Source: Methylococcales bacterium
GTDB taxonomy: Bacteria > Pseudomonadota > Gammaproteobacteria > JABHGC01
DNA length: 64,000 bases
Assembly (NCBI GenBank): GCA_018672285.1
Contig: JABHGC010000225.1
Span: 7,153 to 71,152, forward strand
Reading direction: 5' to 3'
Numbering within the stretch: position 1 is the stretch's first letter; every line of letters starts with the position of its first letter. The position numbers and the translations under genes were made by a program. The notes beneath the pieces are model-generated. The model was given only the letters and a program-made list of their open reading frames with translations. It did no database searches and was not told the origin of the DNA. Positions 1-36,725 of this stretch are shown piece after piece.

Positions 1-229
1 TTTGGGTTTGGTTTGCATTCCCTTCTAACCATGGAATCATCTTCGCCAAATACACAGGCTCACCACCGAGGACTAAACAGCGTAATGAGGCCAATTGTGC
101 CATTTCTGCTGTCGTCACAATGTGCTCATCGACCATTGAGTAAAAACTGCTCGGTGTAATATTTAAAATCGTGACATTGTGTTGGCTGATAAGTTGCAAC
201 ACACTCTTCGCTTTCGCAATTTCTTGTAA
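1..229 (-). other. Mid-A-domain sequence (post-A4, pre-A5) following the A10 motif directly with no T domain; continues off-window
   Basis: Translated ...SKEKHSLQEIAKAKSVLQLISQHNVTILNITPSSFYSMVDEHIVTTAEMAQLASLRCLVLGGEPVYLAKMIPWLEGN, which has the shape of the A4-to-A5 region (...ITVLNxTPS...LRxLxxGGE...) and not that of a PCP. Confidence 0.5.
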
Positions 230-3200
230 TGAGTGTTTCTCTTTAGACTGCTCACCAGGTTTTGGTAATGCTTTAAAATCGACTTTACCATTGGCCGTTA
301 AAGGCAATGACTCCATAACGACAAAGGCAGAAGGCACCATATAGCTCGGTAATTGTTGCTCTGATATCGCCCGTAAGTCTTCTACGCGCACCACAGAATC
401 ACTGACCAAATACACCACTAAACGTTGATCACCCTCGACATCTTCACGAATGATCGCCACATTCTCTCGAATACCAGGGTATAGCCCAACCACACTCTCA
501 ATTTCACCCAGCTCGATTCTAAAACCACGTAATTGCACTTGTGAGTCAATCCGGCGGATGTACTCCAGCTCACCACTTTCTAAGATTCTGGCCAAATCAC
601 CCGAGCGGTATAATTTACCGTCTGCAAAAGGATGCTCAATGAAACGTTCAGCCGTCAGCTCTGGTCTTTCTAAATAACCATCAGATAAACCCGCACCCGC
701 GATACACAGCTCACCAGGCACCCCTTCAGGCACAGGGTTAAGATTTTCATCTAGCACATACAACTGCAGATCAGGAATTGGCAGTCCAATGATACTGTTC
801 ATCCCCTGGCCTCTAACGGCAGAGCTCACATCATCAATTTTAATGCGGCGATAGGTCACATGAACGGTCGTCTCAGTAATACCATACATGTTCACCAATT
901 CAGGGCTGGCATCACCATGGCGTTTCACCCACGGCGCTAAATTACGTAAATCTAGTGCTTCACCACCGAAAATAACCTGACGTAATTGCAGTTGTTGGGC
1001 AATATCCGGGTTGATATTCAAGTGATATTCTTCAGCACGAATCAACTGATAAAATGCTGACGGGGTCTGGTTTAAAACAGTGACCTTCTGGTCTATCAAC
1101 ATCTGGTAGAACACATTCGGTTCGCGAGCGGTTAAATAAGGCACAACCACAATTGAGCCACCGTAGAATAATGCGCCCCATATTTCCCAAACAGAAAAAT
1201 CAAACGCATAAGAGTGGAACAAGGTCCAAACGTCATGTTCATCAAACTTGAACCATGCTTGAGTTGCAGCCATGAGCCTGACCACATTCTGATGATTAAT
1301 CATCACCCCCTTCGGTTTTCCAGTCGAACCTGAGGTATAGATGACATACGCTAAGTGTTCAGGTTTAACCGCAATATTCAGGTTCTCTTTGTCATATTCT
1401 AATAGTGCTTCCCGCTCTTGGTCTAAAACAAAAACCGAATCAATGCCGCCTTGAATTTGAGCGGCCAAGTTTGAATGTGTGATCAATAATACGGCAGCGG
1501 CATCTTTAACAATAAAGGAGACTCGGTCTTGTGGGGCACCAGGGTCTAATGGCAGGTATGCGGCCCCTGCTTTTAACACCGCCAAAATACACACAACCAT
1601 ATCCACGGAACGGTCTAAATAAAGCGCAACCAGTTGATTGCAGCTCACCCCTTCATTAACCAAATACCGAGCCAACTGATTTGCGCGCTCATTCAAGTCA
1701 TAATACGTAATATGGTTGTGCTCATACCTAACGGCAACATGGCTTGGGAAAGCCTCAGCGGCAGCTTCAAACTGGCTCGCTAGAGTAGCAACTGACTCAA
1801 ATTTCTGCTGCTTAGACACAAGATTCAAGTAATCATCAAGCTGTAACGCCGACATTAAACGAAGTTGGCCTAATTGTTTGCCCCCTTGAATAATTTGTTC
1901 AGAGAGTGCCACCACTTGTTCTAAGAATTGAAATTGCGAGAAGACCCTTGGGTGGTAATGTAAATTCAAGGTGAGCGATGACTCATCTTTCTCGATATAC
2001 AGTAAAACCTGATCTTCATCGGCTAATGTTTGCTGAGTTGAAACAACCCCCGCATCAAAAAACTCATAGTCATTTGACACACTTAAAAAGTGATAGTGGA
2101 AGGTTAATCGACCACTTTGCAACACACTACTTTGCAAGAACTCAAGTAAAGGTTCATTCGAGACAATATCGTGACGATAACGGGCAAAATACTGAAGCAA
2201 CTCTAAAACACCCGATTGCTGACCCAGCTTTTCAACCGGTACTAAGGTTGGCAAACAATCCCGGTTGTTACTAGAAGATGAAACAACCCCTAAAGCCCTT
2301 GCATCTAACTGCTCATGAATCACAAAATCTGCTTCTGGCCGGCAATATTGGCTGATCAGATACGCATAAATACTCTTAAAGTAATCATCTGGAAAAAGGT
2401 CATTTAAGCTACAAAATTCTTTAATGTCTAGTGCATGCTCAGCGCTAACCGCTACTTGGTGCTGCTGACGATAGTTACGCTCTGCGGTAAGTGCAGGGTA
2501 ATCCAACACATCCAATTGATTGATACGTTCTTGCCAATGCTTAAACACACCGGCACACTCATCACTTGGGCATAAATCATCACCATTACCCAGCAGAACC
2601 AAGTTTGCACCAACAGAGAACGTCGCAAAGAAGTTCTTCTGGCTTAAATCAAAGCAAAATGAACTTGCTAATAGCACATGATCATCGGCATTTAAATCAC
2701 ACGTTTTGGTATACCAATGAATCAAATTCGACAAGCTACGATGCGTGACTTCCACCATCTTAGGCTTACCAGTACTGCCTGAGGTATAAATAATATACGC
2801 AGGCTGACTTGCTCCGACTTGGCTCACTAAGTTAACCGAAGGCTCAATGGAAATGCCCATCCAATCGGTATCGACACATAACAGTCTGCAAGGCAAACTC
2901 ATGGGAATGTTATCCAGCTGCGACTCTTGGGTCAGCAATATGGCAGACTCGCTGTCTCCAATAATGTAACCAATCCGTTTTTCAGGATACGTGGGATCAA
3001 CAGGGACGTAAGCGGCTCCCGCCTTCAATACAGCATAAATGGAGATCACCATTTCTAATGAAGGTGACATGCAGATCGCCACATTAGAACCCCCATTAAC
3101 ACCCAGTCGTTGTAAATGATGCGCTAACTGGTTTGCCCGGCTATTCAGCTCGGTATAGGTCAATGATTGATTATTCAACGTCACTGCAGGTGAATAAGGG

Positions 3201-6200
3201 GATGCAAACACCTGTTTTTCTAGCATTTGGTGAACAGCAAAATGGCTTGGATAAACCACTTCTGTTTCGTTCCACTGATCAACCATTAAGGTCCACTCTG
3301 TCTCACTTAACATCGGTAAAGTAGAAACAGGCTGCTCAGGATCGGCGACCATGCCAGACAATAAATTATGATAATGACCAACCATATTCTCGATGCTGGA
3401 TTGATCAAATAAATCGGTATTATATTCCCAATGGAACACTAAGCCATCTGGCGTTTCATTGATCATGATGGTCAAATAAAATTTGGCCGTTTTAGTATCC
3501 GCTTCAATTGGTGAAAAGGTAAAATCACCCTGCTCCATATTCATCTCAGGCATGTTTTGTAACACTAACATCACTTGAAATAACGGAGACACATTCTGCC
3601 GACGTTCGGGCTGAATGTCGTCCACGAGTTTTTCAAAGGGGGCATCTTGATGGGCAAATGCATCTAGCGTTACTTCCCGAGCATTACGTAACAACTCTGA
3701 GAACCCAGGATTACCCGTTAAGTCACCACGGAGTACAACGGTATTCACAAACATACCAATCAATGCTTCGGTATCGGTCTGTCGACCCGCAACCGGTGTA
3801 CCAATACAAATATCTTTTTGACCCGAGTATCGTGACAACAACACTTGCAGCGATGACAATAAGGTCATAAACAGCGTTGCACCTTCATTCTGGCCAATCG
3901 TTTTCAGTTTATTCACCAAGCTTAATTCCACTTTATCGTGGCATGTTTGGCCTCGATAACGCATCACTTGTTGCCTAGGACGATCTGTTGGTAAATCTAA
4001 TATCTCAGCATCAGCAAGCTGCTCAGACCAATACGATAACTGTTGCTCAAGCACGTCACCGACCAGCCAGTTCTTTTGCCAATATGCATAATCACCATAT
4101 TGAATGGATAACGGTGGCATAGAGGTTTCATGGTTGTGAATCACCGCTTGGTAAAAATACCCAAGCTCTTTAATAAACACATGGCTGGACCAACCATCTG
4201 AGATAATGTGGTGCATATTGATGATCAACACATGCACATCATCATCCGTCTCCACTAAGGTGACGTTAAATAATGGCAACTGAGTTAAGTCAAAGGGCTT
4301 TTCAACCTCATGCCTAACCAGCTCTTCAATGGTTTTATCGGAGCTAATATCTTTGGTGATGACAGTTAATGGCACCGACATCTCGGCGTGAATTTTTTGT
4401 ACTGGCGGCTGGTTAGGCTCAACAGAAAACGTCGTTCGCAATATTTCATGACGCATGATAATGGCAGCAATCGCGTGTTCAAAGGCCTCTCTTTGCAAAA
4501 CGCCTTCCACTTTAACAGCAGCAGGCACGCTATAAGCGACATTTCCAGGTTCTAATTGATCTAAGAACCACAAACGCTCTTGTGCAAATGACAGCGGGAT
4601 CGCTACATCACGAGAAACGGCGGTAATTGCTGGTGCTTGTAAGGTTTTTTCTGTTCTCAAAACCACATCAATTGCTTGGGCAAATCCGCCGGCTGTTTCA
4701 GACTCAAACAACGTTCTTAATGGAATTTGAACTTGATATTGTTTAGATAATTTTGACACCACTTGGGTTGCCATCAATGAATGGCCACCTAAAACAAAGA
4801 AGTGATCATTGACACCGACTCGCTCAATGTTCAACGCTTCAGCCCACACATCACACACTGTTTGTTCAATACTGTTGCGTGGTGCGACATAAATCGCATC
4901 CCGATCAAGACCGGGTTCTGGTAACGCTTTACGGTCTACTTTCCCGTGTGCATTAAGTGGCATATCTGAGAGCGCCACATACTGCATAGGCACCATATAA
5001 TCAGGCAATACTTTAAGCAGAGACTGACGCGCTTGTGCCGGATCAAAGTCATCGGAAACCACATACGCCACAAGCTGATCGTGTTTGACTAAGACCGTGG
5101 TATCCGCCACGCTTTCCAGCTGACTTAGTGCCACTTCAATTTCACCAAGCTCGATACGCAAACCACGCAACTTCACCTGGAAATCGAGCCTGCCCATATA
5201 TTCTATAGTGCCATCCGCTAACCTGCGACCTAAGTCACCGGTTCGGTAAGCACGGATACTTGGCGCAAATGGTAAACTGATAAAGCTCTGTTCAGTCAGC
5301 TCTGGTTGCCCCATGTAACCGGCACCCACACAAACACCTGCGATGACGATCTCACCACAGACCCCATCAGGCACTAATTGTTGCTCTGCATTCAAGACAT
5401 ATAACGACACATTGGCAATGGCACTACCGATAGGCGGTGATGCCTGCTCATACGCTTGCGGTGCTGTAACCGTGAATGCAGCAACAACATCGGTACACTC
5501 TGTTGGGCCATAACTATTCACAATTTGAGCGACACAGCCTTCTTGTTGTAACCAACTCAACAACCGAGGCATTTGGATCGCTTCACCACCAAGCACGGCA
5601 TAACGTAGACTGGATAACTTCTCTGAATATGTTTCAGCTAACGGATACAACATACTCGGCGCACAGTTAACCGACTGAACTTGGTGTTGCAGAATCAAAT
5701 CTGCAACAAGCTCTGGCTCATAATGGGACAGCTCAGGTAATACCAAGCTACCACCGTGGCAAAGGTTAGCGAATATATTTTTCTGCGTTAAATCGAAACC
5801 AATCGAACTAATCAAGATAGAGCGGCTACTGCCATTCATATCCAAGGCATCGGCATACCAGGCAATTAAGTTAGAAAAGCTGTGTTGATACACACTGGCA
5901 CCTTTCGGCTTCCCTGTAGAACCTGATGTATAAATCGCATAGATCAACGCATTCTTCTGTGCAGAATCCACAACCACAGGTTCCGTGGTATTTACCGCTG
6001 CCTCTTCGACAATGATGACCTGTTGATCTGCAAAAGAGATGTCTTTAGCAATACGGGCTTGCGTTAACACAATCGAGACATTGGCATCGGCCAAAATATA
6101 GGACAAACGCTCTTCTGGGTAGTCAGGGTCTAATGGGATATAAGCGGCTCCAACTCTCAGGGTGGCAAAGATGCTAGCAATCATATCAACCGACCGGTGA

Positions 6201-9200
6201 CAACACACACCAATCCACTCTGGCGTGCTGTCTAATGCCATAATCGTATGAGCAATTTCATTCATACGATCATTTAATACTTGGTAACTCACCTGCTCAT
6301 TACCGGCAATGAGGGCCACTGCATTCGGAGACCGTTTCACATGCGCTAAGAATTGGTCATCTACCGATTCATATTCATCTAATTGACTAACCACTTGCTG
6401 AGAAGCAATTTGTGCTTGTGCCAACTCTGATTCTGTTAACCAGTTTAGTGCCGACACTTGTTCGGTGCCGCTTACAATTTGTTGGGCAACAAACTTAATC
6501 CGCTCTAGTAAATCTAATTGTTCAAAATGATCCGAGAATGACAATAAATTCAATTGCCAACCTGCATCCATAACCTTCACAATCATTTGTACTTGGTCTT
6601 CAGCAACAGGGGGAGAGTACTGTTGCAGTGCCTGATCCTGACCTAAGAAAGGCATTGTTGCTGCAAAATGGTAAAAGTTATAAAGAAAGGTCGTTCGAGC
6701 AGCAGGCAATAGCTGTTGCTGTACCATGACGGACAGATGACCGCGCTTTTTATCCATTTTTTGTAGCTGACGAACTTGATCAAATAATTCCGTTAAATTT
6801 AAGCTGCCATCAAACATGGCTTTGCTAAACAACACAGGCATTTGCTGATAATAACAACCCGCAGTCGCTAAGTGACCACGAGGCCTTCCAGAAAGCACTT
6901 CTGTGATGACAAAATCGTCTTCACTCCGACAAAAAACGGCCAGTGACAGTGCATACAATGATCGGAAGAACATGGTTGGTGTCATTCTGTTTTTACGACA
7001 AAATCGCTTAATGTCTTTAAATAAAGCACCTTCAATAACCAGATCAGATGCTTGATACTCCGATACAGCCGTACTGGTTGGAAAATCTAAGCGCTCTATC
7101 GTTTGTTTCTGCTGCTGCCAAAAATCGATGGCTTGAATTTTATCCACATCGTCGGCCGCAACGGTTACATAATCAAAGAAAGAGGTTGCTGACAACGGTA
7201 ATTCACAGCCCTCAGACAACGCCGTGTATTGAGCACAAATTTCTGAACAGACATGGGTCATGCCCACACCATCTAGAATAATATGTTGTGCCGCTTGCAA
7301 TAAATAATACTCATCGTCCCCTATTGCGATCACATAAAACTTAATCAGTGTCTCTTTATCAAGCTCATAAGCACGATAAGTAAATGCCTCAATCATTTTA
7401 TTGGCTTGAGCGTGTGAAGCATCACCTGCCGGTAACTCAATCACCTCAAACTCAATAGAGCGTTGCTTAGGAATACATTGATAAACAGGCTCAGCATAAG
7501 GCTGATCACAGCGTAGCAAGCGTGCACTTAAAATAGGATTATTATCCACTACCATCTGGCAAGCGCGTTGCCACACACTGGCACTAAATTCACCCTGTAA
7601 TTTCACCGCAAGACCAAGGCAGTTACGCGTGGTCTCTGGATTCACAACCGTATGAATATACAGATCCCGCTGTGTTGGCGTCAGCGGATAAACACCCAAA
7701 TAATCTTCTTGATTAAGACCAAGCACTTCATGTAAGGAGTGTTCGTTCAGCAAAGAAATTGTATTCAGAGGTTGCTCAATATTACCGACCATTTGCTCTA
7801 ATACAAACTGATAGTGCTGCATCATCACTTCAATGGTTTCAACATCGAATAAATCCGTATTAAATTCAACCAAAGCATTAAGCTGTTCACCATACTCAGA
7901 TACAGATAAAATCATATCGAACTTGGCTGTAGCCAACTCACTTTCTACCATCTCAAAAGACAACCCAGCCAGTTCAAACTCGGTATCCACAGAAGTTTCT
8001 AACGTGAAGCCCACTTGTGCTAATGGCGGGTATGACATTGAACGATCTTTGACCAAATCGTTCATAATCATCTCAATAGGGATATCTTGATGACCGTAAG
8101 CGGCCAGTGCACGCGTCCGAACAAGTTGTAAAAATTCAGATAAGGTTGGGTTGCCTGCCAAATCTGCTCGCATCAACACCACATTCACAAACATACCGAT
8201 CAATGGCTCTAATGATGCATGACTACGACCTGCAACCGGGGAGCCAACCACAACCGTCTCTTGACCTGCATATCGGCTCAATAAGATCTGATATGCCGCC
8301 AATAGATACATATACAGGGTGACACCATTGTCTTGTGCGTTTGCTTTAACCTGCTGTGAAAGTTCATCAGGCAACTGCAACCGATAACGCCGACCAATAT
8401 AGGTTTGAATATCGGGTCTTGGCCGATCAGTTGGTAAGGTCAGCTTCTCTGGTGCCCCGTCTAAAGTCTCTCGCCAAAACTGCAACATACCCGCAAGTAC
8501 ATCATCACTTAACCAGTCTCGTTGCCATATTGCATAGTCAACATACTGTACGGACAACTCAGGCAACATCGGTGATTGTTGCTGTGAATACGCTTGGTAA
8601 GCATGGCTGACCTCTTGAACCAAAACATTCACCGACCAACCATCAGACACAATGTGGTGCATGGTCAACATAACCACGTGCTCTTGTTCTGACAGCATCA
8701 CCAGTTTTGCCCGTAACAATGGGCCTTTGGTCAAATCAAAACTTAAAGCGGCATATTGCTCAGTAATGTTTTTAAGTTGTTGCTCTTTTAAATAGTCAGG
8801 CTGATCGGAGATATCTTCAACCGGAATGGTTTGAGACTTATAGTCATCAATGATTTGCACGGATTGGCTGTCAACCGTCGCAAAACGCGTTCTCAACGCA
8901 TCATGGCGTTTAATGACAAAATTGACTGATTTTTCTAACGAGACAATGTCTAACTTACCCGTTAAGCGGATGGCAGCAGGCATATTATAAACCGCATTAC
9001 CCGGCTGTAGCTGGTCTAAGAACAAAAGTCGTTCTTGAGCAAATGACAGCGGTATATTACTCGGTAATGTTTGCCTTTCAAGTACAGGCATGGGTACTTG
9101 GTCTACTTTTGCCAAAGCCAAATCAAGCTCATGCGCCAACTGTTGGATGGTTGGTTTTTCAAACACTTGGCGAACACTGAGTTCGACATTAAATCGCTCA

Positions 9201-21200: not shown

Positions 21201-24200
21201 GTATCGCCATTTAACCATAACGCGGCATCGTCCATGGCAAGCCATATATCATTATCAGATTGAAAAACAGCTAACGCACTGTGACTCAAAACGGCAGACA
21301 TGTCTGACTTATCAATGATGTATTGTATTCTTGCAGCAGGGTAATTCGGGTCTATCGGTACATAACACCCACCCGCTTTAAGCACCGCTAAAATAGCAAC
21401 AAGTACATCAGGTGATGGCTCAATACAAATGCCCACAGCAGACTCTGGCTGCAACCCCTGATTCAGTAAATAATGTGAGAGCGTATTGGCCTTCTCATTT
21501 AAAACAGCATAGCTATAGGCAACCCCAGGCATTTGAGTGGCGATGGCATCGGGTGTTTTTTGAACCTGCGCTTCGAACCCTTGATGCACGGTTGCAAAGG
21601 TAGAATCTTGTGGGTTGATACCGCCATTCCAAGACCATTGCTCAGGGGTGGCTTCATCATTGAGCAATAAATCAAAGTCACCCACGGTTGTAACACCGGC
21701 CACGAATTGTTCTAGCAACTGTTTAAAGCGAGGTAATAAGTCTAGGCTTGAGAAGTTCGCATCATTAAAACGCAAGCTTAGCATCAAACCATCGTCCAGA
21801 GTTTTGATAATGAAGAGAATATCTTGTTCGCCAACTTGTGCATTACGCTGAATCGTTTTAATCGATACATCACTGTGTTTCAGTTTAATATCGTCAGCTA
21901 GCTCAAAAAAGTTATACGAAAACTTCAAACGCCCTTGCGGGATAGCTTGCTGCTGGGCAAAGTTTGAAATATCTTGTTTGCTTCCCAGTGTTCGTACGAA
22001 TTGCTTAACGTGGGTAAAGTAATCCCCTATGGGCGTATCGTCTTGTAATAAATGATTGGGGAAAATGACCGGAACTTGCTGATAATAACAGCCTAATGTT
22101 GAGTTGTGCTTTTTCACTCGCCCACTGAGTAACTCATAAACCACAAAGTCACTACTGGTTCGGCAGTATTCTTTCAAGACAATGCCGTAAATGGCTTTCA
22201 ACAACAGTGCCGGTGTCATTCGCTGGCGACGACAGACTTTTTTAACCTCTAACCAAAACTCACCATCGATTAGCTGTTCTTCTTCAACCGTTTTACCCTG
22301 TTCCACTGCCAATGGTACAAAATCCAATGGCTCAACATTCGCGGTTGCATTTTTCCAGTAGCGTAATGTTTCTTCTCGGTCGAAACGTGCCGCATTTTGT
22401 TCAACATATTCACGGAACAAACAGTCGATAGAGTGATATTGTTTGCCTTGCATTAAGGCTTCATACGTCCAGCATAATTGCTGAGCATAAACACGAACAC
22501 CAATACCATCGAGCATCACATGATGGATGCCCATCGCGATAACCGTGCGATCTTTTAACAAGTACACTTGATGACGTATTAATGGCCCTTCACCTATCGC
22601 ATAAGGGCGATAGATAAAATCACTGGACTGCTGATAAATTTTGTCTATATCGGCACTGCCACGACGGCAGTCAAATACGTCATACTCAAACACCGAATCG
22701 TTACTGACACATTGATAAGCCGTTGCCAAATAAGGCGCCGTTGAGGCTTTTAGTTGAACTCGGAGGACGGGCTGATCATCATGAACTTGGGCAATGGCTT
22801 TTTTCCAGGTTTCCTCATCAATCGCCATCGGTAAATCCAGGATGTAACCGATGGAATGGTTGATGTTATCAGGTGCCAAAGTACATGCGACAAAAATATC
22901 TCGCTGCATTGTCGTTAATGGCATTGCCGCCATATACTGTTCAGCTTCAATGCTTAAATCTTGGTACAACTCATCGATAGAGACAAAACGATATTGCTCA
23001 ATTTCAGCTTCAGGCTTGTCTACAAAATGTTGTAACAGTCGTTCAAAGTGCACCATCATCTGCTGCACTGTTTCAGGCTTAAATAAGTCTGTGTTGAATT
23101 CAAGCTCACCAACCAAACCTTCTGATTCAGTCAGCATTAAAATCATGTCGTATTTTGCCGTGCCATTGTCAAGCTTCAGTGGTTCTACTTCGACACCAGG
23201 CAAGGTTAAGTCTGCAGTCGGGACATTTTGCAAGGCAAAACCCACTTGCGCGATGGGTGGGTAGCTTAAATTACGCTCAGGCTGAAGTGTCTCAACCAAC
23301 AGCTCAAAGGGTATTTCTTGGTGGGCAAACCCAGATAAAGCGGTATCTCTGACAGATTTTAAGAACTCAACCCCTGTCATGTTGTCATTGATTTTTGAGC
23401 GCATCACAATGGCATTGACAAAAAAGCCAATTAAATCTTCGGTTTTATCAATGTTGCGCCCTGCGATTGGCGAGCCAACACAGATATCTTCTTGCCCACT
23501 ATAGCGATACAACAATACGTTGAAAGCAGCCAACACAGCCATATATAAAGTAATATTTTGCTGTCGGCATAATTCATGTAAATTATCGACCAACTCGGTG
23601 CCAATTTGGAAGCGGTACACTTGACCATTAAAGGTTTGTACAGGTGGCCTGGGGTAGTCCGTAGGTAAGCTTAAAAATGCAGGCGCACCCGTGAGCTGTT
23701 TCGTCCAATAAGCCAGCTGGGTTTCTAAAACCTCTCCTTGATACCAAGTCCGCTGCCAATGTGCGTAATCTGCATACTGAACGGAGAGTTCAGGTAGTTT
23801 TACGGCTCTATTATCATAAAGCGCACTGTAAATTTCTGTGAATTCACGGATAAATAACCCGACTGACCAACCGTCCGAAATAATATGATGAAAGTTCACG
23901 GCGAGAATAAAGTCAGCGTCTGAATTTTTAACCAACATGACACGAACTAAGCGGTCTTGTTCTAGGTTAAAGGGTTGCCGTGAAAAATGTGATAACTGAC
24001 TGTTTAATTCATCCTCAGACGCTACCTCAAGGTGCTGTATGTCTAACGAACAATGATCATCAATCAGTTGCTGAGCGGCACCATCTACAGATTTAAACCG
24101 GGTTCGCAAACTTTCTTGCCGAGTCAGTAATGCATTAAAGGCTTGCTGCACTAGGTCAACATCAATGTCACCTTTGATGGCTACCGCACCAAACATATTG

Positions 24201-27200
24201 TAAATAGGATTTTCTGGTTCTAATTGGGATAAAAACCAAAGCCGCTCTTGTGCAAATGACAATGGCAATGCTTGATCTCTTTCAATCACTTCAATGGGGG
24301 CAATTGCGGTTTGCTCACCCGTGAGATCAATCACTTCTGCTAACGTTTCTAGTGTCGATGCTTCAAATAATTTATGTAACGGAAGTTGTACCGTAAACTC
24401 AGTTTGAATTCTTGAGATTAACTGGGTTGCGATCAGCGAATGACCACCAAGATCAAAGAAATTATCATGCCTGCCTACTTGGTTTGCATTTAAAACTTGT
24501 TGCCACAATACCGACAGACGTTTTTCCGTATCCGTCACGGGCGCAATAAAATCTTGCTCTGATAATAGGTTCGCGTCTGGTGCCGGTAAAGCTTTTCGGT
24601 CAATTTTCTCATTAGGTGTGAGTGGGAACTCATCCATGTACACAAAGGCTGATGGAATCATAAAATCAGGTAAGTTGGTTTTCAGCTGTTTCTTTAAATC
24701 ACTCGCAGTGATTTCATCGGCACCTTCATTCACCACTAAATAACCAACCAAGCGTTGGTCACCGGGGGTATCTTCACGGGCAATCACAACCGCTTCTTTA
24801 ATATGTGCAATGTTACCTAATAAGGTTTCAATTTCACCCAGCTCTATTCGGTAACCCCGTAGTTTAATTTGAAAATCAGCACGGCCAACACATTCTAATA
24901 CACCCCCAGATAACCAGCGAACCAAGTCACCTGTTTTATAAATACGGCTACTACCACCATCAAAGGGGTTTTTGATAAAGACTGAAGAGGTTAAATCGGC
25001 ACGGTCATGATAGCCCGGTGATAAACCTAAACCACCAATATACAGCTGGCCTAATGCACCAATGGGTAATAATTCTAATTTATCATCCAGTACATAAACT
25101 TGGGTATTGTCAATTGGCTGACCAACAGGGATAACTTGACTCGCATCGTCAATACATTGAATAGTTGACCACACAGTTGTTTCCGTTGGGCCGTACATAT
25201 TCCACAGTTCAACGCCAGGTTGTTCAACCAGTTTTTGCGCCAAATTCTGTGGCATGGCTTCACCGCCACAGAGTACTTTTAAGGGTTTTTCTTGCTGCCA
25301 GCCACCATCGAGTAATAACTTCCACGTCGCAGGCGTCGCTTGCATTAAGTTGATTTGTTCATTCACCATAATTTGCTGAAGTTTCACACTATCAACAGCG
25401 ACGCTACGATCAACCAATATCAATTCACCACCGACAAGCAATGGCAACCAAATTTCAAGGCCTGCAATATCAAACGACAGTGAGGTAACGGCTAAGAGCC
25501 GATCACTCGCACTAAACCCTGGCTGACGCTGCATACTACACAAAAAGTTAATGATGTTTTCATGGGGAATTTTCACCCCTTTAGGTTTGCCTGTTGAACC
25601 GGAGGTATAAATCATATAAGCAAGATTTTCACCACCAAGACCTGCAATGGCATTTTTATCACTGCGTTGATCTATTTTTTTCCAATCCGTATCTAAATGA
25701 ACTTTTTCGATACCTTGGGTGTTCAACCCTAAATTAAGTGATTTCTCTGTTACCAATACATCCGCTTTGGCATCCGACAGCATAAAACTTAAACGATCTT
25801 CAGGATACAAAGGATCCATCGGCACGTATGCACCGCCGGCTTTTAAAATACCGAGCAAACCAATCACGAGGTTAATAGAGCGCTCAACACACAACCCCAC
25901 AAACACACCGGGGCCAACATCACGCATTCGTAAATATTGTGCCAATTGGTTGGATTTACTGTTTAATTCCGAGTAGGTAATGCGGTCGTCACCACATTTT
26001 AATGCGACTTTATCGGCATTTTCAGCACACACCACTTCAATGAGTTGATGCAGCGTTTCAATTTCTGGCAGTGTAACGGTGGTCTGATTCCAATCATACA
26101 ACAAGATGTTTTTCTCTTGCTCTGGCAACATCGGCAAATGGTCAACATCTTGATTTGGGTTTTTGACAATACTTTCTAACAAGGCGACATATTGCGCCAA
26201 ATAGCGATCCACAGTTTCTGGTTTAAATAAAGCGCTGTTATATTCTATAGACGCATCTAAGCCGTTATAGGACTCTGCAAGTGATAACCACAGATCAAAT
26301 TTTGCGGTGCCGTTATGGCTTTCAAATAAGCTGACTTCCATTTCGGGTAAGTCAAAATCTTCCATCGGTGTATTTTGCAAAGTGAACATGATCTGGTATA
26401 ACGGATGACGACTTGGATCTCGCTCAACATCCATGCTTTCAACCAGCTTCTCAAATGGGACATCTTGATGAGAAAAAGCTTCAAATGACGCGGTTCGAAC
26501 ATTTTCTAATAATTGCTCATAGCTATCATTGGGGTTAATTTGGGTTCTAAAGACCAAGGTATTGACAAAGAAACCAATCAGGCTTTCTACTTCCGTTCGC
26601 GTTCTGTTCGCGACAGGAAAACCGACTGACAAATCTGTTTGCCCGGTATGCCGGAACAACAATATTTTAAATGCGGATAACAGCACCATGCTTAAGCTCG
26701 CACCACGACGCTCGCTTAATTCTTCTAATGCCACCACAAGTTCAATGGGTATGGTTAAGCGCCTAATCCCACCTTGGTACACCAATACTGGCGGCCTTGG
26801 GTAATCAGTACTTAAGTCAATCAGTGGTAAATTGCCGTTAGACAGCTGTTTATTCCAGTAGCTTAACTGCTCTTGTAAATTATCCCCTTGCAGTGCATTT
26901 TGTTGCCATGCGGCATAGTCTAAAAATTGGGTCTTCAATGGTTTTAAGGGAGATGGCTCGCCCAATAAAAAGGATCGATACAAAGCCATTAACTCTGAGC
27001 TTAAAATCCCCAATGACCAACCATCAGACGCTATATGATGCATGGTGACTAACAACACATAATCTTGACTACCAATTACCACGACTTTGGCTCTCAGCAT
27101 TGGGCCTTTATCCAGCTCGAAAGGAATTTTACCCTCTTCGTCAGCAATCTCTTTGGCAGCAGCTTCTCTGGCTTCAAGACTGAGTGTTTGGTCAATATAT

Positions 27201-30200
27201 TCAATATTTAATTGGATACTTTGGTTATCTGATATCGTGGCTTTTGCAACACCATCAGCTTCTACAAATGTCACTCTCAATACTTCATGACGTGCTAAAA
27301 CGCCATTAAGCGCTTTCTTCATCAATTCAATATTTAAATCCCCACGCATTCTAAGGGCGGCAGGAATGTTGTAGACGGATTTATCGGTTAAGAACCGATC
27401 CATAAACCATAAACGTTGCTGTGAAGATGAAATCGACAGCGTTTGCTGGCGATCAACAATGTCAATGTTATCTTTACTGACGGCACCCGTGGTTTGCTGT
27501 TGTTCGATTAATTCCGATAGTTTTGCAACAGTTGGGAATTCGAATAGATAGCGCACAGGTAACTCAACAGAAAATTTATCTTTTACCCGTGAGATCACCT
27601 GGGTTGCCAATAAGGAGTGACCACCAAACTCAAAGAAGTTATCGTCAATACCAACTCGTACTGCACCCAGTACTTCCGACCAGATATCAACCAAGCCCAA
27701 TTCAATAGGGGTTCTTGGTGCTGTATAAGCATCCGTCATGGTCATGCCGCCAGGTGCTGGCAATGCATTGCGATCTATTTTACCGTTGGGTGTTAATGGA
27801 AAGGCATCTAAGAAGACATAGTCCGTAGGTACCATGTAGCTCGGCAATTGCTCTGCCAAAAATTCTTTTAAGTCTTGGGTTTCAAGTGGGGCAAATGATT
27901 CGGACACCACATAACCGACCAATCGTTGATAACCGGGTGTGTCCTCACGAACCAAGACCACAACTTGTGCCACATCATCATGTTTGGTCAGTGACGCTTC
28001 AATCTCACCTAATTCAATACGGTAACCACGCAGTTTAACCTGATGGTCTATTCGACCTAAAAATTCAATCGAACCATCATGTAAAAATCGGGTTAAATCC
28101 CCTGTTTTATACAGCCGCTCGTTGGCTGCAAATGGGTTGTCAATAAAACGTTCAGCGGTTAATTCCTCTCGTTGCCAATAACCATCTGAAAGACCTGCCC
28201 CACCAATGTGTAATTCACCTGGCACACCAACAGGCACAGGGTTGAGTGCTTTATCTAAGATATACACTTTGGCATTGTTAATTGGCCGTCCAATCGGCAC
28301 CAATGTCCGTAAATCATCAGGGTCACATTCCCAGAAGGTTGAATCAATTGCCGCTTCCGTTGGCCCATATAAGTTATATAAAGGCACATCAAACCGGTCA
28401 TAGTACTGTGATTGTAAGTCTGCAGGTAATGCTTCACCACCACAACACACCCGTTTCAATGAAGACAACGGCTTATTCTCTGGCAACATATCCAAAATCA
28501 TGCGTAACGCGGAAGGGACTAATTGCAGCGTGGTAATGTTATGTTCGTGAACTGCATCGATGAGGTACTCACCATCAGTATGACCACCCGGTTTGGCCAA
28601 CACCAAACAGGCGCCACTTAACAATGGTGCAAAAAATTCCCACACTGAGGCATCAAAACTGAATGGGGTTTTTTGTAAAATTCGATCACTTTCATCTAAG
28701 CCAAACGTTTCTAGCATCCACTGCATGTGGTTGCATATCGCTCTATGTGGAATCATGACCCCTTTCGGATTGCCTGTAGAACCTGAGGTATAAATCACGT
28801 AAGCCAAGTCATCTCTGCTTGGTTGTGGCAGGCTAATATCATTACTGAAAGAGGCAATATTGCGCCAGTCACTGTCTAGCTGAATAACGGTTCCTGTAAA
28901 TTCAGTTAATTTCGACTCGCGCTCGGCTTGGGTTAATAAAATATTAATCGCCGAATCATCCATCATGTACTGAATTCGATCCAATGGATAACCAGGATCA
29001 ATGGGTAAGTATGCGCCACCCGCCTTTAGTACACCGAGTATCGCTACGACCATTTCAACAGAGCGATCAGCACAAATACCGACCAGTTTATTAGGCAGCA
29101 CACCCTTCACAATTAAATAATGCGCTAATTTGTCAGACCGAGCTTGTAACTCTGCAAAGGTTAATGACTCATCTTGATACACTAAAGCGGTATTATCGGC
29201 ATATTTTTTAGCGGTTTGATCGAACATCCCGACCAATGTGTCTTTCGGGTAATCCACCCGAGTGTCATTCCACTCAATGGTGAGCAAGTCCCGATCCGCA
29301 TCGGTCAGTAGTGAGACATCATCTAAAGGCTGATCTGGTGAATCTAAAAGTCGTAACAATAAGGTATGAAAGTGCAGCGACATAATGGCCACTGAACTGT
29401 GATCAAATAAAGCAGAGTTGTATTGAAAGCTACCATGATAGCCGTCTTCACCTTCGGCCATCGTGAGCATAATATCAAACATGGCCACTTGATGGTCTAA
29501 TGCAATGGAGTGAAGGGTCACATCTCCTAATGATATCTCACCACCCGTTTCACCTAAAACGAAGCCAGTTAAGTCTTCATCTTTTTTCTGATAGGCTTTT
29601 TGCAGTACAAACATCGCTTGGAATAAAGGTGAACGGCTGGTGTCACGCGTTGGTTGAATCTGCTCAACCAAGTTTGCCATAGGGTAATCTTGGTGTGACA
29701 ACGCCCCGAGCACATCACTTTTGCACAGCTTAATAAAGTCATTAAATGAACGGTCTTCATCAAATTTTGCGCGCAGCACAACAGGGTCAACAAAGTAACC
29801 CACAATGCCCTCTAAACCGTAACGTGAACGCCCCGCAACCGGCGACCCCACTAAGATATCTTCTTGCCCTGTATAGCGATGCAATAACACTTGGAATACC
29901 GCTAATAACAACACAAATGGCGTCACATCTTGTGCCTTGGCAAACTCATTCACCCGCAGGCTGTCTTCCAAAGGTATTTTCATACTCACGGTTGCCCCTG
30001 CATACCCTTGCACGGGTGGACGAGGGTAGTCGGTAGGTAACTCTAAAACAGCCTGACATTCACTTAAGGCATTCTTCCAATAGGCACGTAATTCACCGCC
30101 CCGCTCACCCATGAGTACGCTATTTTGCCAGTTCACAAAATCTGTATAGCGATACGGTATTTCAGGTAGCTCTATAGAGGTACTTGTCCGCATTGCAGGG

Positions 30201-32905: not shown

Positions 32906-33181
32906 AATTATCCAGTAACTTATTAATTTTTAAAACATAGTTCCAATATATAAAATAGTCGAATATCTACATTGGGTGGGGGGACATACTTAGAAATTCG
33001 CCAAATTTAAACATAAGCAACTGTTTATTGGTCTTATTTTTATATCATTATGATACTGCTGACGCAGATAAAATACCATCGCAAAAACACATCAAAGTTG
33101 CCTATTTTCTATGTGTTTAGGTAGCAATTTCTCACAACGATGGCCATACTCTATAGTATTTGCGCCATAAAGTGACTTTGC
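32906..33181. promoter_or_regulatory. AT-rich divergent intergenic region between the NRPS start and the kinase-like gene; promoters not mapped
   Basis: 277-bp non-coding AT-rich spacer between divergently oriented start codons. It contains a short palindrome, atcattatgat, at about 33047-33057. Confidence 0.3.
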
Positions 33182-34153: not shown

Positions 34154-34171
34154 GCTAAAAGGTAGCAACAG

Positions 34172-34474
34172 ATGGCAAAAATTTTAGTGGTTGATGATGC
34201 CGAAATGATTCGCAAACTCATGTCCGCATTCTTTTCCAAACACGGCATTACTGTCACCACAGCAGTCGATGGCATGGACGGCTTTAACAAACTGAAAGCT
34301 GACCCTGAAATCAAATTGGTTTTTGCTGACGTCAACATGCCAGAATTAAATGGGCTAGCTATGGTTGAAAAAATTCGCAACGAACTTGAAACCGAAGCGG
34401 TTATTTTGATGCTCACCTCAGAAAACAGCAACGAAATGAAAGAACGAGGAAGAGCGCTTGGCGTCAAAGGCTGA
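34172..34474 (+). CDS. CheY-like receiver domain protein, ended by an in-frame TGA before the conserved KPF lysine. The reading frame continues to 34534.
   Basis: MAKILVVDDAEMIRKLMS...FADVNMPELNG...LMLTSE...GVKG then TGA at 34472-34474. The same frame continues as VVKPFNDPNVINLVKKIVA and ends at a TAA at 34532-34534. Confidence 0.7.
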   Translation: MAKILVVDDAEMIRKLMSAFFSKHGITVTTAVDGMDGFNKLKADPEIKLVFADVNMPELNGLAMVEKIRNELETEAVILMLTSENSNEMKERGRALGVKG

Positions 34475-36717: not shown

Positions 36718-36725
36718 ATAGCGGC

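What the first reader, a model, noticed from the sequence alone, without database searches (positions are those of the whole stretch)
1..32905. Single lipopeptide NRPS ORF of more than 32.9 kb (at least 10,968 codons in-window) with a FAAL-ACP starter, running off the contig edge
One uninterrupted minus-strand frame carries a FAAL loading domain, an ACP, a starter C domain and at least nine further condensation and adenylation units. Codon phase is identical at the start, at five internal check points and at position 1. No TE domain, MbtH or transporter lies in the window, so the synthetase continues further left. A product starting with a fatty acyl group and containing at least nine amino acids is implied. 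Mega-synthetases of this size encoded as one ORF are rare. The repeat structure described below suggests a periodic peptide.
Basis: partly seen in the sequence, partly recalled or inferred. Interest (0 to 1): 0.8.

Follow-up and report, generated by a model that had tools for sequence, protein, structure and literature searches.

The report
Giant lipopeptide synthetase with extra domains
The window holds the first 33 kb of a roughly 39-kb single gene from an uncultured Methylococcales bacterium that encodes a fatty-acid-primed peptide assembly line; the gene is real but not record-sized, and its unusual features are a recurring extra condensation-type domain tied to homoserine/threonine modules and one adenylation domain nested inside another.

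Summary
Confirmed: minus-strand frame 32905→1 is open for 10,968 codons (0 stops; chance ~1e-288). It starts at ATG 32905 and encodes FAAL–ACP–C followed by NRPS modules. The same locus on a 108-kb metagenome contig has a 13,010-aa gene call, so ~2,040 aa (6.1 kb) lie beyond the edge. Source: Methylococcales MAG.

Corrections: the window holds 8 modules (7 complete), not ≥9. Predicted chain: acyl-Gln-Gly-Hse-Gly-Thr-Hse-Hse-(Hse/Thr). Three of the "condensation units" are an extra C-type domain (X) between C and A in modules 3, 5 and 7. Module 8's A domain is interrupted after motif A4 by half an X domain plus a complete Thr-type A domain (unique among 925 A domains checked).

X has the catalytic xHxxxDG motif, is closest to DCL-type C domains, and defines a widespread uncharacterised C–X–A–T module. 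In 148 relatives, 136/140 X domains follow a C, and 122/124 downstream A domains select Hse/Dab/Orn/Thr/Ser (p≈1e-47). Best reading, inferred: a second acyl transfer onto side-chain-bearing residues, like the embedded chain-initiating C of icosalide synthetase. That would give a multiply acylated or ester-linked lipopeptide.

Size is large but below SelB (59.9 kb) and kolossin (49.1 kb). New variant of a known kind.

The parts
1..32905 (-). 5' 84% (10,968 codons) of one NRPS gene. The full gene is probably 13,010 codons (~39 kb, ~1.4 MDa); its 3' end lies ~6.1 kb beyond window position 1.
   Evidence: 0 stops in frame; ATG 32905 with upstream in-frame stop at 32932; 13,010-aa gene call at the same locus on a JGI contig
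30986..32821 (-). FAAL (fatty acyl-AMP ligase) loading domain, aa 29-640
   Evidence: Pfam AMP-binding 209 bits plus DIP2-like C-terminal domain; best NCBIfam families are all FAAL
30716..30925 (-). ACP, aa 661-730, with the GVDSL serine motif
   Evidence: PP-binding 48.5 bits; motif
27500..30652 (-). Module 1: C in the starter position (LCL-like, HHIAVDM) - A1 (DAWQCGLID, Gln-like) - T1
24323..27445 (-). Module 2: C2 - A2 (DILQLGMVW, Gly) - T2
19892..24274 (-). Module 3: C3 (pre-X clade) - X3 (window 21596-22933, HHVMLDG) - A3 (DLKNFGMDI, Hse) - T3
   Evidence: the Hse code is documented in PMC7524897 and PMC12283262
16736..19843 (-). Module 4: C4 - A4 (DILQLGMIW, Gly) - T4
12245..16696 (-). 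Module 5: C5 (pre-X clade) - X5 (window 14006-15343, HHLLMDG) - A5 (DFWNIGMVH, Thr) - T5
9119..12193 (-). Module 6: C6 - A6 (DLKNFGTDI, Hse) - T6, with no X
4664..9061 (-). Module 7: C7 (pre-X clade) - X7 (window 6356-7693, QHIILDG) - A7 (DLKNVGSDV, Hse) - T7
3284..4606 (-). C8, the condensation domain of module 8
2585..3214 (-). Outer A8, N-terminal part (motifs A2-A4 intact; code begins DLKNVG, Hse-like). It breaks off after '...FDLSQKNFFATFSVGANLVLLGNGDD'.
1772..2560 (-). Half-X: the C-terminal subdomain only of an X-type domain (aa 10116-10378), the first part of the insert in A8
   Evidence: hmmsearch with the X3/5/7 profile gives 116 bits, E 1e-37, profile positions 195-431 of 454; the C profile gives only 3 bits; no Pfam or PDB hit on its own
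281..1771 (-). Inner A domain (aa 10379-10875): complete, code DFWNIGMVH (Thr), 60% identical to A5. The A2-A7 and A10 motifs examined are present; A8 is slightly deviant (RRIDSQVQLRG).
2..208 (-). Outer A8 resumed ('KSVLQLISQHNVTILNITPSSF...LRCLVLGGEPV...'), running off the window edge
   Evidence: The composite of the N-part plus this tail aligns without a break to the other A domains and to GrsA 234-315
32906..33181 (.). 276-nt divergent intergenic region between the NRPS start and the histidine-kinase gene; presumed promoter region
   Evidence: the same spacing occurs on other contigs
33182..34474 (+). Histidine kinase (33182-34153) and response regulator (34172-34474), transcribed divergently from the NRPS; a possible cluster regulator (inferred from position only)
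   Evidence: Pfam HisKA/HATPase_c; response-regulator gene call and conserved order on other contigs
34705..36717 (+). 670-aa alpha/beta-hydrolase (chlorophyllase/PETase-like); a possible esterase linked to the cluster (inferred)
   Evidence: conserved next to the NRPS in a second MAG
36726..37466 (-). Sfp-type 4'-phosphopantetheinyl transferase, needed to activate the 8+ carrier domains
   Evidence: Pfam ACPS + AASDHPPT_N

Best explanation
SHOWN. Window 1-32905 (minus strand) is the first 10,968 codons of one real gene of an uncultured Methylococcales bacterium. It encodes a type I nonribosomal peptide synthetase with this layout: FAAL-ACP-C-A(Gln-like)-T / C-A(Gly)-T / C-X-A(Hse)-T / C-A(Gly)-T / C-X-A(Thr)-T / C-A(Hse)-T / C-X-A(Hse)-T / C-[A(Hse-like) interrupted after motif A4 by half-X + complete A(Thr)]... 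A Sfp-type PPTase, an alpha/beta-hydrolase and a two-component pair lie just upstream. The gene most probably totals 13,010 codons.

INFERRED from established NRPS logic. The FAAL activates a fatty acid and loads it on the ACP. The first C N-acylates Gln-S-T1. The chain is then extended module by module to give acyl-Gln-Gly-Hse-Gly-Thr-Hse-Hse-(Hse or Thr)-..., and is released by a TE that is predicted, not seen, in the missing 2,042 aa (rest of A8, T, then probably C-X-A-T-TE as in relatives).

INFERRED, main mechanistic proposal. X is a second, catalytically competent condensation-type domain. It acts on the aminoacyl-S-T of its own module and carries out an additional acyl transfer from a donor other than the upstream T domain. 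Its dedicated partner, the 'pre-X' C domain, joins the upstream chain. Because X modules almost always load a residue with a side-chain OH or NH2, one of the two bonds is probably made at the side chain (ester or isopeptide), or at the hydroxyl of a 3-hydroxyacyl cap as in icosalide synthetase IcoA. The product would then be a branched or ester-linked lipopeptide with several acyl groups, built from acyl-dipeptide units: modules 1-2, 3-4, 5-6, 7-8.

The nested A domain is most simply an old in-frame insertion of a 'C-acceptor-subdomain + A' cassette into the A4-A5 loop of A8. Which of the two A domains loads T8 is unknown.
For: ORF and start. Domains and motifs.

Total length and organism: 13,010-aa call, same neighbours and same 276-nt spacing; identical neighbour proteins named 'Methylococcales bacterium'.

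Independent record: P0145 is an exact 3,217-aa substring. There are no long near-identical DNA repeats that could mislead an assembler.

Specificity codes: with the Hse code documented in PMC7524897 and PMC12283262.

X is a distinct clade: 28-32% identity among X3, X5 and X7 against 14-21% to the C domains, and Pfam Condensation 106-117 bits against about 290-420 bits for the ordinary C domains. The X profile is closest to DCL-type domains in the PDB: BacC second domain 115.6 bits, PvdL 142, McyB 130, SrfA-C 103-118, TycB1 108. The window's other C domains are LCL-like, with Txo1/2 and TycC6 at 230-317 bits.

The catalytic xHxxxDG motif is kept in nearly all X domains (H142, D146 invariant and G147 near-invariant in A2).

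Survey of 148 relatives: of 140 X domains, 136 come directly after a C and 4 sit at a protein N-terminus; 131 are followed by A. Of 124 downstream A domains, 122 carry codes for Hse (83), Dab-like (14), Thr (11), Orn (8) or Ser (6), against 93 of 328 elsewhere (Fisher p 1.3e-47).

Pre-X C domains form their own clade across proteins, with the nearest neighbour in the same class in 39 of 41 cases.

Precedent: IcoA module 3 is LCL-CI-A(Ser)-T, and the embedded CI was shown in vitro to N-acylate Ser-S-PCP (PMC6553374; review PMC10510592).

No hydroxylase or other trans partner appears in the parts seen of the clusters of four relatives or in the window.

Nested A.
Against: X does not resemble the solved starter/chain-initiating C domains: RzmA-Cs scores 65 bits over the N-half only, and CDA-C1 scores 42 bits. 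IcoA itself could not be obtained for comparison.

No acyl donor for X is identified. The only FAAL-ACP is the N-terminal one, and no extra ACP or ligase gene lies in the window's right flank.

In icosalide the ester uses the fatty-acid 3-OH, not the Ser side chain, so the side-chain association is not explained by that precedent alone.

Hse is also incorporated without X in module 6 and in 38 modules of relatives, so X is not required for Hse.

The pre-X clade could reflect module duplication history rather than function.

The last 2,042 aa, including any TE, are unseen. The 13,010-aa figure comes from a contig whose NRPS sequence could not be read. No product is known.
Confidence: 0.55

Rival explanations
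1. X is the real peptide-bond-forming domain of its module (a DCL-type C). The LCL-like C in front of it is the accessory domain. That accessory sits where an E domain sits in canonical T-E-DCL-A-T modules, and would act as an epimerase substitute, a gatekeeper or an inert spacer.
For: All of X's closest solved relatives appear to be DCL domains, which normally follow an E domain (the DCL assignments rest on my knowledge of these synthetases, and for the PvdL chain on inference from its length and match position). The layout T-[C]-[X]-A-T mirrors T-E-C-A-T. The synthetase has no recognisable E or dual E/C domain: no HH[I/L]xxxxGD motif, and every C-family domain resolves as an LCL-like C or as X. 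Proteins that begin with X-A-T would then be ordinary elongation subunits.
Against: Pre-X C domains are typical LCL sequences with an intact HHxxSDGWS motif, 38-46% identical to the C domains that must condense on their own in C-A-T modules. They are far from E domains, which score 35 bits or less. This reading does not explain why X modules select only residues with side-chain nucleophiles. Two intact catalytic centres argue for two reactions.
Confidence: 0.15
2. X catalyses an intramolecular reaction of the acceptor's side chain rather than a second acylation. One option is cyclodehydration onto the new amide (oxazoline from Ser/Thr, dihydro-oxazine from Hse, tetrahydropyrimidine from Dab), analogous to the tandem Cy domains of VibF. 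Another is that it shields Hse/Dab thioesters from self-lactonisation or lactamisation.
For: The side-chain-nucleophile rule holds for 122 of 124 modules. No external acyl donor is needed, and none was found. One of X's best structural relatives is a PvdL C-type domain, inferred here to be the one whose acceptor is Dab at the junction where a tetrahydropyrimidine ring forms (PMC9569983).
Against: X carries xHxxxDG, not the DxxxxD motif of Cy domains, and Cy structures score only about 56 bits. Orn-type codes (8 modules) would require a seven-membered ring. Hse is incorporated without X in module 6 and in 38 other modules, so protection is not obligatory.
Confidence: 0.15
3. X is a non-catalytic scaffold that recruits a trans-acting tailoring enzyme to the T-bound residue. 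This is how the siderophore 'interface' domain works for beta-hydroxylases, and how the glycopeptide X-domain works for P450s.
For: X is a divergent C-superfamily member placed inside a module, as described for interface domains (antiSMASH 8 paper PMC12230676 citing Reitz et al. 2019). A JmjC/cupin oxygenase gene lies 9.4 kb away at 42310-43473.
Against: The catalytic His-x3-Asp-Gly is conserved across the family. None of the 124 downstream A domains has an Asp or His code. No TauD-type hydroxylase, P450 or other conserved partner appears in five contexts. The JmjC protein is a ROXA/YcfD-type housekeeping enzyme sitting among housekeeping genes. The glycopeptide X domain scores only 43 bits.
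Confidence: 0.08
4. All or part of the structure is an artefact or is decaying. The nested A region, or the whole ORF, could be a metagenome mis-assembly. Alternatively module 8 is a dead recombination scar and the gene is on its way to becoming a pseudogene.
For: The sequence comes from a metagenome-assembled genome. The nested arrangement is unique, 1 in 925. The half-X is more diverged than the full X domains, at 22-24% against 30-35% identity. The inner A8 motif is slightly off. No independent record overlaps the last 3 kb.
Against: Both junctions are in frame, and the two outer-A halves align seamlessly. There are no near-identical repeats that could cause a mis-join. Composition is uniform. 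The insert is old: the inner A is only 60% identical to its closest paralogue. The frame stays open to the window edge, and the 13,010-aa gene call on the other contig implies it continues for 6 kb more. The core motifs checked are intact in the outer N-part (A2-A4) and in the inner A (A2-A7, A10).
Confidence: 0.05

Closest known systems
Icosalide synthetase IcoA (Burkholderia gladioli), with its 'embedded chain-initiating C domain' (Jenner et al. 2019, PMC6553374)
   Same: Both have a C-type domain directly after an elongating LCL domain and directly before A-T, with no carrier domain in between. Both keep a catalytic His. The residue loaded has a hydroxyl side chain (Ser in IcoA). Both have a two-module (acyl-dipeptide) periodicity, and both have a lipo-initiation step at the N-terminus.
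   Different: IcoA has one embedded domain; this protein has three, plus a half and probably a fourth. IcoA's embedded domain groups with starter C domains, whereas X is closest to DCL domains and far from the solved starters. IcoA starts with a CI domain that uses FAS-derived 3-hydroxyacyl thioesters, whereas this protein starts with FAAL-ACP-C. A direct sequence comparison was not possible.
FAAL-ACP-C primed lipopeptide/siderophore synthetases, e.g. PvdL of pyoverdine
   Same: An N-terminal acyl-AMP ligase, a carrier domain and a C domain that acylates the first amino acid. The window's first 750 aa match the PvdL-like NCBIfam model PRK05691 over positions 8-509 at 533 bits.
   Different: PvdL has 4 modules with an E domain and no X-type domains. 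Here there are at least 8 modules, no E domains, and the C-X-A-T modules.
Giant single-gene NRPSs: SelB (selethramide, 59.9 kb, 18 modules) and Kol (kolossin, 49.1 kb, 15 modules) (PMC10589681)
   Same: The whole assembly line is encoded in one ORF of tens of kilobases, and the product is or is predicted to be a lipopeptide.
   Different: This gene is smaller (~39 kb, about 9 modules). It comes from a different lineage (Methylococcales), has a different starter (FAAL-ACP) and contains domain types those enzymes lack.
Interrupted adenylation domains (M, KR, Ox and MOx inserts; Lundy et al. 2020, PMC8341866)
   Same: An A domain whose N- and C-terminal parts flank a foreign insert. A cyanobacterial A domain in L015 has an ordinary ~345-aa interruption at about the same position.
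   Different: The insert here is not a tailoring domain. It is half a condensation-type domain plus a whole second A domain (~790 aa). That category is not in the published catalogue and was not seen in the other 924 A domains examined.
DCL-type condensation domains (BacC, McyB-C1, SrfA-C, TycB-C1)
   Same: These are the closest sequence relatives of X, with full-length alignments and the catalytic motif conserved.
   Different: DCL domains follow an E domain and are the only C domain of their module. X follows an LCL-like C, no E domain is present, and X is restricted to modules for side-chain-nucleophile residues.

Membership tests
Type I modular NRPS | Repeated C, A and T (PP-binding) domains with intact core motifs on one polypeptide | tested here: met
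   Pfam hits in every 1,000-aa slice; domain map; HHxxxDG, A-domain core motifs A2-A8 and GGHSL present
FAAL-ACP-primed lipopeptide synthetase | N-terminal fatty acyl-AMP ligase, then an ACP, then a C domain | tested here: met
   The best NCBIfam families are FAAL (435, 425 and 404 bits), above acyl-CoA ligases (307 bits or less), though below the whole-protein cutoffs because it is only a domain. ACP has GVDSL. C domain at aa 752-1208.
FAAL-ACP-primed lipopeptide synthetase | Fatty acid actually activated and transferred | not testable with these tools
   Needs a biochemical assay or the product structure
Embedded chain-initiating C domain (icosalide type) | C-type domain immediately downstream of an elongating C and upstream of A-T, with no intervening T | tested here: met
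   C-to-X gaps are 11-13 aa in modules 3, 5 and 7; 136 of 140 X domains in relatives follow a C, and 131 of 140 precede an A
Embedded chain-initiating C domain (icosalide type) | Catalytic His of HHxxxDG present | tested here: met
   HHVMLDG, HHLLMDG and QHIILDG; the second His and the Asp are invariant and Gly near-invariant in the 15-sequence alignment
Embedded chain-initiating C domain (icosalide type) | Groups phylogenetically with starter/CI domains | tested here: inconclusive
   Against solved structures, X is nearest to DCL domains (103-142 bits) and weak to the starters RzmA-Cs (65 bits) and CDA-C1 (42 bits). The IcoA sequence and the NaPDoS reference sets were not available.
Embedded chain-initiating C domain (icosalide type) | N-acylates the T-bound amino acid with an acyl thioester not carried by the upstream T | not testable with these tools
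   Requires an in vitro assay as in PMC6553374
Siderophore 'interface' (I) domain (Reitz et al. 2019) | Sits in a module whose A domain selects Asp (or His), with a beta-hydroxylase domain or gene in the cluster | tested here: not met
   0 of 124 A domains after X have Asp or His codes. No TauD-type hydroxylase in the window or in the parts seen of four relatives' clusters. The primary paper could not be read.
Glycopeptide X-domain | Degenerate HRxxxDD motif, located after the last T and before the TE, recruits P450s | tested here: not met
   The motif xHxxxDG is conserved, the position is between C and A, and 4TX2 scores only 43 bits
Epimerisation (E) domain | Follows T and precedes a DCL; closest to E-domain sequences | tested here: not met
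   X follows a C domain, not a T. The TycA and GrsA E domains score 30-42 bits, below DCL and LCL.
Heterocyclisation (Cy) domain | DxxxxD motif in place of HHxxxDG | tested here: not met
   xHxxxDG is present; BmdB and EpoB Cy score 40-56 bits
DCL condensation domain | Closest sequence class | tested here: met
   The top five PDB matches to the X profile are all domains I read as DCL: for BacC, McyB, SrfA-C and TycB this rests on my knowledge of the pathways, and for the PvdL chain on inference from its length and match position
DCL condensation domain | Receives a D-configured donor generated by an upstream E or dual E/C domain, and is the only C of its module | tested here: not met
   No recognisable E or dual E/C domain in the window protein (no HH[IL]xxxxGD; all other C domains are LCL-like). 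X always shares its module with another C.
Interrupted A domain | One A domain whose two parts flank an inserted auxiliary catalytic domain (M, KR, Ox, MOx) | tested here: inconclusive
   The two outer parts align as one A domain, but only 69 aa of the resumed part are in the window. The insert is half-X plus a whole A, not a listed auxiliary domain.

The most novel reading that the evidence does not exclude
C-X-A-T is a widespread, uncharacterised NRPS module type in which two condensation-type domains make two bonds to one residue that carries a side-chain OH or NH2. One is an N-acyl cap delivered by X; the other is a backbone link through the side chain or the cap's hydroxyl, made by the specialised pre-X C. 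On that reading, this Methylococcales synthetase strings four or five acyl-dipeptide units into a multi-tailed, ester-linked 'oligolide'. That would generalise the single icosalide precedent into a family with a predictive rule (X implies Hse/Dab/Orn/Thr/Ser). In addition, module 8 would be a natural A-within-A domain that can load two different amino acids.
Probability: 0.3. Interest if true: 0.8.

Novelty: new variant of a known kind. Interest (0 to 1): 0.55.

Why it matters
If the C-X-A-T reading is right, genome-mining tools currently mis-predict the products of over a hundred synthetases. They treat X as a redundant C domain, when it would mark sites of branching or of ester or isopeptide linkage and of extra acylation. 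The strict link between X and Hse/Dab/Orn/Thr/Ser modules (p≈1e-47) gives a directly testable rule, and small relatives suitable for experiments exist: P0137 (a 14.5-kb gene), the X-A-T proteins of about 1,100 aa, and cultured Pelagibaculum spongiae. The nested A domain is a rare snapshot of how NRPS modules are rebuilt by recombination at the C-subdomain/A boundary, the same boundary used in NRPS engineering. Finally, a ~1.4-MDa lipopeptide synthetase in Methylococcales, an order known for methanotrophs, points to unexplored specialised metabolism in that group.

Tried and rejected
(1) Extending the ORF leftwards did not succeed.
- A protein search with the last 1,094 aa found nothing above 56% identity.
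- The genome-collection scan found no close relative; the best was 57-61% over one A domain.
- The metagenome scan with the last 109 aa matched only the A10 motif.
- The DNA of the 108-kb JGI contig was not retrievable.

(2) An AlphaFold model of X3 from a 3-sequence alignment had pLDDT 47 and was unusable, so no fold search was run.

(3) The word-index search with the X profile at E≤1e-40 returned nothing. That was a wasted search, because the exhaustive search shows that many strong hits exist.

(4) IcoA could not be retrieved for a direct comparison. Candidates of the right size among the hits were not Burkholderia proteins, and the plasmid collection holds no X-type domain.

(5) A test of whether pre-X C domains resemble the ester-forming C domain SgcC5 was inconclusive: 120-136 bits against 112-120 for pre-A C domains.

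(6) Dual E/C domains were rejected because the N-terminal HH[I/L]xxxxGD motif is absent.

(7) Recent intragenic duplication was rejected as the source of the periodicity or of the insert. C domains are 31-43% identical, the inner A is 60% identical to A5, the half-X is 22-24% identical to other X halves, and DNA repeats exist only at motif level.

(8) The Reitz interface-domain paper was not available to read. That family was therefore judged from secondary descriptions and from the Asp/hydroxylase criteria.
Full report
OBSERVATION

The reverse complement of window 1-32905 translates in one frame to 10,968 sense codons without a stop. The other two frames carry 666 and 1,029 stops. Given the strand's composition (5.9% stop probability per codon), the chance of such a run is about 1e-288.

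The first codon is ATG at 32905, and an in-frame TAA lies 27 nt upstream at 32932. Gene calls on other contigs carrying the same neighbouring histidine kinase start the NRPS at the same point, 276 nt away on the opposite strand. The frame runs off position 1, so the gene is truncated by the window.

SOURCE AND TRUE LENGTH

Six neighbouring proteins are found letter for letter in public records named 'Methylococcales bacterium', from two NCBI MAGs and on contigs up to 108,484 bp.

On a 108,326-bp JGI contig with the same gene order, the gene next to the kinase has a 13,010-residue product. So about 2,042 residues (6.1 kb) probably lie beyond the window, and the whole gene is about 39 kb (~1.4 MDa). 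I could not read that DNA, and all attempts to extend the ORF failed.

A 3,217-aa protein record (P0145) is an exact substring of the window protein at aa 3843-7059, and P0151 overlaps X3. These are separate records of the middle of the gene.

DNA repeats inside the ORF are only motif-level, at 60-85% identity over 40-300 nt. No long near-identical repeat exists that could have misled an assembler.

ANATOMY

Pfam finds AMP-binding, PP-binding and Condensation in every 1,000-aa slice. A self-search with the window's own domains gave the full map, in this order:
- FAAL (aa 29-640), ACP (661-730), and a C in the starter position (752-1208).
- Seven complete modules, followed by C8 and an anomalous A region.

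The loading domain scores best against fatty-acyl-AMP-ligase families, at 435, 425 and 404 bits. Acyl-CoA ligases score 307 bits or less. The ACP has GVDSL and all seven T domains have GGHSL.

Stachelhaus codes were read against a GrsA ruler that reproduces DAWTIAAIC:
- A1 DAWQCGLID (Gln-like; from my own knowledge of Pseudomonas-type Gln codes).
- A2 and A4 DILQLGM[VI]W (Gly).
- A5 DFWNIGMVH (Thr).
- A3, A6 and A7 DLKN[FV]G[MTS]D[IV].

DLKN-type signatures are documented as homoserine codes: DLKNFGSDVK in scytocyclamide/laxaphycin (PMC7524897), and DLKNVGSDVK and DLKNLGTDVK in a signature survey (PMC12283262).

The predicted in-window chain is acyl-Gln-Gly-Hse-Gly-Thr-Hse-Hse-(Hse/Thr).

No TE-like or MbtH-like sequence was found anywhere in the window, and Pfam annotation of 25 of the larger ORFs in 33-64 kb shows no transporter. 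The upstream side does carry a two-component pair, a 670-aa alpha/beta-hydrolase and a Sfp-type PPTase, in the same order as in a second MAG.

THE EXTRA X DOMAINS

In modules 3, 5 and 7 a second Condensation-family domain of about 445 aa sits between C and A. It lies 11-13 aa after the C, with no carrier domain between them.
- X3, X5 and X7 are 28-32% identical to each other but only 14-21% identical to the eight ordinary C domains. They keep HHVMLDG, HHLLMDG and QHIILDG.
- It also explains the alternating 3.1-kb and 4.45-kb spacing of motif repeats, which is a period of about 7.6 kb.

HOW WIDESPREAD X IS

An exhaustive profile search of 1.84 billion representative proteins returned many synthetases with full-length X matches. 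I mapped all 148 of the top hits that are not fragments of this protein.
- 104 proteins contain 140 true X domains.
- 136 of these directly follow a C domain, and 4 sit at a protein N-terminus.
- 131 are followed by an A domain.

Examples are P0137, (C-X-A(Hse)-T)x3 with a TE-like tail, and P0140 from Pelagibaculum spongiae. Among 102 unrelated NRPS loci (1.6 Mb) X occurred once, in another Methylococcales MAG. That protein reads C-A(Thr)-T-C-X-A(Hse)-T-TE.

The catalytic xHxxxDG is conserved in nearly all X domains.

The A domains that follow X (n=124) carry these codes: Hse 83, Dab-like 14, Thr 11, Orn 8, Ser 6, and 2 others. Thus 122 of 124 select a residue with a side-chain OH or NH2, against 93 of 328 for A domains not preceded by X (Fisher p 1.3e-47).

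The ordinary C domains that precede X form their own clade across many proteins, with the nearest neighbour in the same class in 39 of 41 cases. The window's C3, C5 and C7 fall in that clade, while C2, C6 and C8 group with other pre-A C domains. So C-X behaves as a co-inherited didomain.

WHAT X RESEMBLES

Against solved structures, the 15-sequence X profile scores as follows:
- DCL-type condensation domains are closest: the second domain of the BacC chain (which follows an E-like first domain in that chain) at 115.6 bits, a PvdL C-type domain at 142 total, McyB-C1 at 130, SrfA-C at 103-118, and TycB-C1 at 108.
- LCL types reach 45-61 bits.
- The starter domains RzmA-Cs and CDA-C1 reach 65 and 42 bits.
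- E domains reach 30-42 bits, Cy 40-56 bits, and the glycopeptide X-domain 43 bits.

The DCL labels come from my knowledge of these pathways. For the PvdL chain, the label rests on inference from its length (1,653 aa) and the match position (557-1006).

The window's other C domains, including the one after the ACP, are LCL-like, with Txo1/2 and TycC6 at 230-317 bits.

X is therefore a distinct clade nearest to DCL, but it lacks the defining DCL context. No recognisable E or dual E/C domain is present, and another C shares its module.

It also fails the criteria for other known subtypes:
- The siderophore interface domain: there are no Asp or His codes after X, and no hydroxylase in five contexts.
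- The glycopeptide X-domain, the E domain and the Cy domain, on motif, position and score (see the membership table).

MECHANISM

The only characterised enzyme with this domain order is icosalide synthetase IcoA.
- Its module 3 is LCL-CI-A(Ser)-PCP.
- The embedded chain-initiating C was shown in vitro to N-acylate Ser-S-PCP with (3R)-3-hydroxyacyl thioesters, and a His-to-Ala mutant was inactive.
- The LCL domain is proposed to esterify the upstream chain onto the new hydroxyl (PMC6553374; PMC10510592).

IcoA also has the two-module period seen here. I therefore propose that X performs a second acyl transfer onto the aminoacyl-S-T of its own module, from a donor other than the upstream T. The specialised pre-X C attaches the upstream chain.

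The strict side-chain-nucleophile rule goes beyond the icosalide precedent. It suggests that one of the two bonds is made at the side chain, as an ester for Hse, Thr and Ser or an isopeptide for Dab and Orn. That would resemble the Ser-linked backbone of enterobactin and the double acylation of Lys by MxcG (both comparisons from my own knowledge).

None of this is shown. Four weaknesses stand out:
- No donor is identified.
- X is not close to the solved starter domains.
- IcoA could not be compared directly.
- Hse is also incorporated without X in module 6.

The rivals are these: X is the true (DCL-like) condensation domain and the pre-X C is accessory; X carries out side-chain cyclodehydration or protection; X is a recruitment scaffold. 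Each is listed with a refuting experiment.

THE NESTED A DOMAIN

After C8, an A domain runs normally through motifs A2-A4 (aa 9898-10107) and then stops. The next 263 aa (10116-10378) have no Pfam or PDB hit. They match the C-terminal half of the X profile at 116 bits (E 1e-37, positions 195-431 of 454) and do not match the C profile.

A complete A domain follows (10379-10875). It has the Thr code, is 60% identical to A5, and keeps the A2-A7 and A10 motifs, with a slightly deviant A8.

Then the sequence resumes exactly where the first A domain broke off. The N-part plus the last 69 aa align as one continuous A domain.

So an insert of about 790 aa, 'X C-subdomain + A', sits in the A4-A5 region of the outer, Hse-type A domain.
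- The insert is old. The half-X is only 22-24% identical to other X C-halves, and composition is uniform.
- Both junctions are in frame.
- In 422 NRPS sequences with 925 complete A domains, this was the only A-within-A. One cyanobacterial A domain has an ordinary ~345-aa interruption near the same position.
- The published catalogue of interrupted A domains lists M, KR, Ox and MOx inserts only.

The cassette boundaries (middle of a C-type domain to the end of A) match the C-acceptor-subdomain/A unit used in NRPS engineering (my own knowledge). That points to recombination. Whether one or both A domains load T8 cannot be told.

COMPARISON AND VERDICT

FAAL-ACP-C priming is well known from PvdL-type enzymes. 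Single-gene mega-synthetases larger than this one are published: SelB at 59.9 kb and 18 modules, and kolossin at 49.1 kb and 15 modules (PMC10589681).

The protein has no close homologue in the databases searched, with a best match of 53-61% over one A domain.

The finding is thus a genuine, large, new NRPS of a known kind. Its interest lies in the repeated C-X-A-T modules, which form a widespread uncharacterised module type with a sharp substrate rule and a single biochemical precedent, and in the nested A domain. I rate it a new variant of a known kind, with interest 0.55.

Noticed in passing
window 33182-37466: A divergent histidine kinase and response regulator, a 670-aa chlorophyllase/PETase-like alpha/beta-hydrolase and a Sfp-type PPTase sit directly upstream of the NRPS. 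They occur in the same order in a second MAG (L001). The hydrolase could be an esterase acting on an ester-linked product, but this is untested.
   Followed up: partly
window 61344-63940: An imelysin (Peptidase_M75) gene is followed immediately by a di-haem oxidoreductase (DHOR/DUF1111) gene. One source names the imelysin 'putative iron-regulated protein'. The pair lies 28 kb from the NRPS, and no link to it was tested.
   Followed up: no
window 46814-47692 and 53006-55174: A Sel1-repeat/SH3 protein, and a 722-aa protein combining a dCache_3 sensor with a eukaryotic-type Ser/Thr protein kinase domain. The region also holds several hybrid histidine kinases (47780-51295, 57811-58968, 58919-61150).
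   Followed up: no
window 37540-39200: A squalene/phytoene-synthase-family gene lies next to a short-chain dehydrogenase, between the PPTase and housekeeping genes. It is unclear whether they belong to the NRPS cluster.
   Followed up: no
P0001-P0120: The inner Thr-type A domain's best database matches are a very uniform, widespread set of ~1,700-aa proteins (Condensation, AMP-binding, PP-binding) from many phyla, 49-56% identical. This family was not examined further.
   Followed up: no
L106 (Pelagibaculum spongiae, P0140): P0140 contains a 'C-T-C' stretch, a module without an A domain, and ends in a C domain, while the next protein starts with a docking domain plus A. In this family, modules are split between C and A across proteins.
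   Followed up: partly
P0275 (434 aa) and P0211, P0242, P0201: X-type domains also occur as a stand-alone 434-aa protein and at the N-terminus of X-A(Ser)-T proteins. P0211 is the first NRPS gene after the ilvN/ilvC housekeeping genes (L103).
   Followed up: partly
L015, + strand ORF starting at nt 17817, aa 476-1138: A Tolypothrix A domain is interrupted by about 345 aa at roughly the same position (profile ~220-247) as the insert in the window's A8. The nature of the insert was not determined.
   Followed up: no
L105, L106 (clusters of P0138 and P0140): C-X-A-T synthetase clusters in relatives are followed by the same export set: an MFS_3 transporter, a type II thioesterase and an RND pump (BSH_RND, plus ACR_tran in L105). 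The window's unseen left flank may hold the same genes.
   Followed up: no
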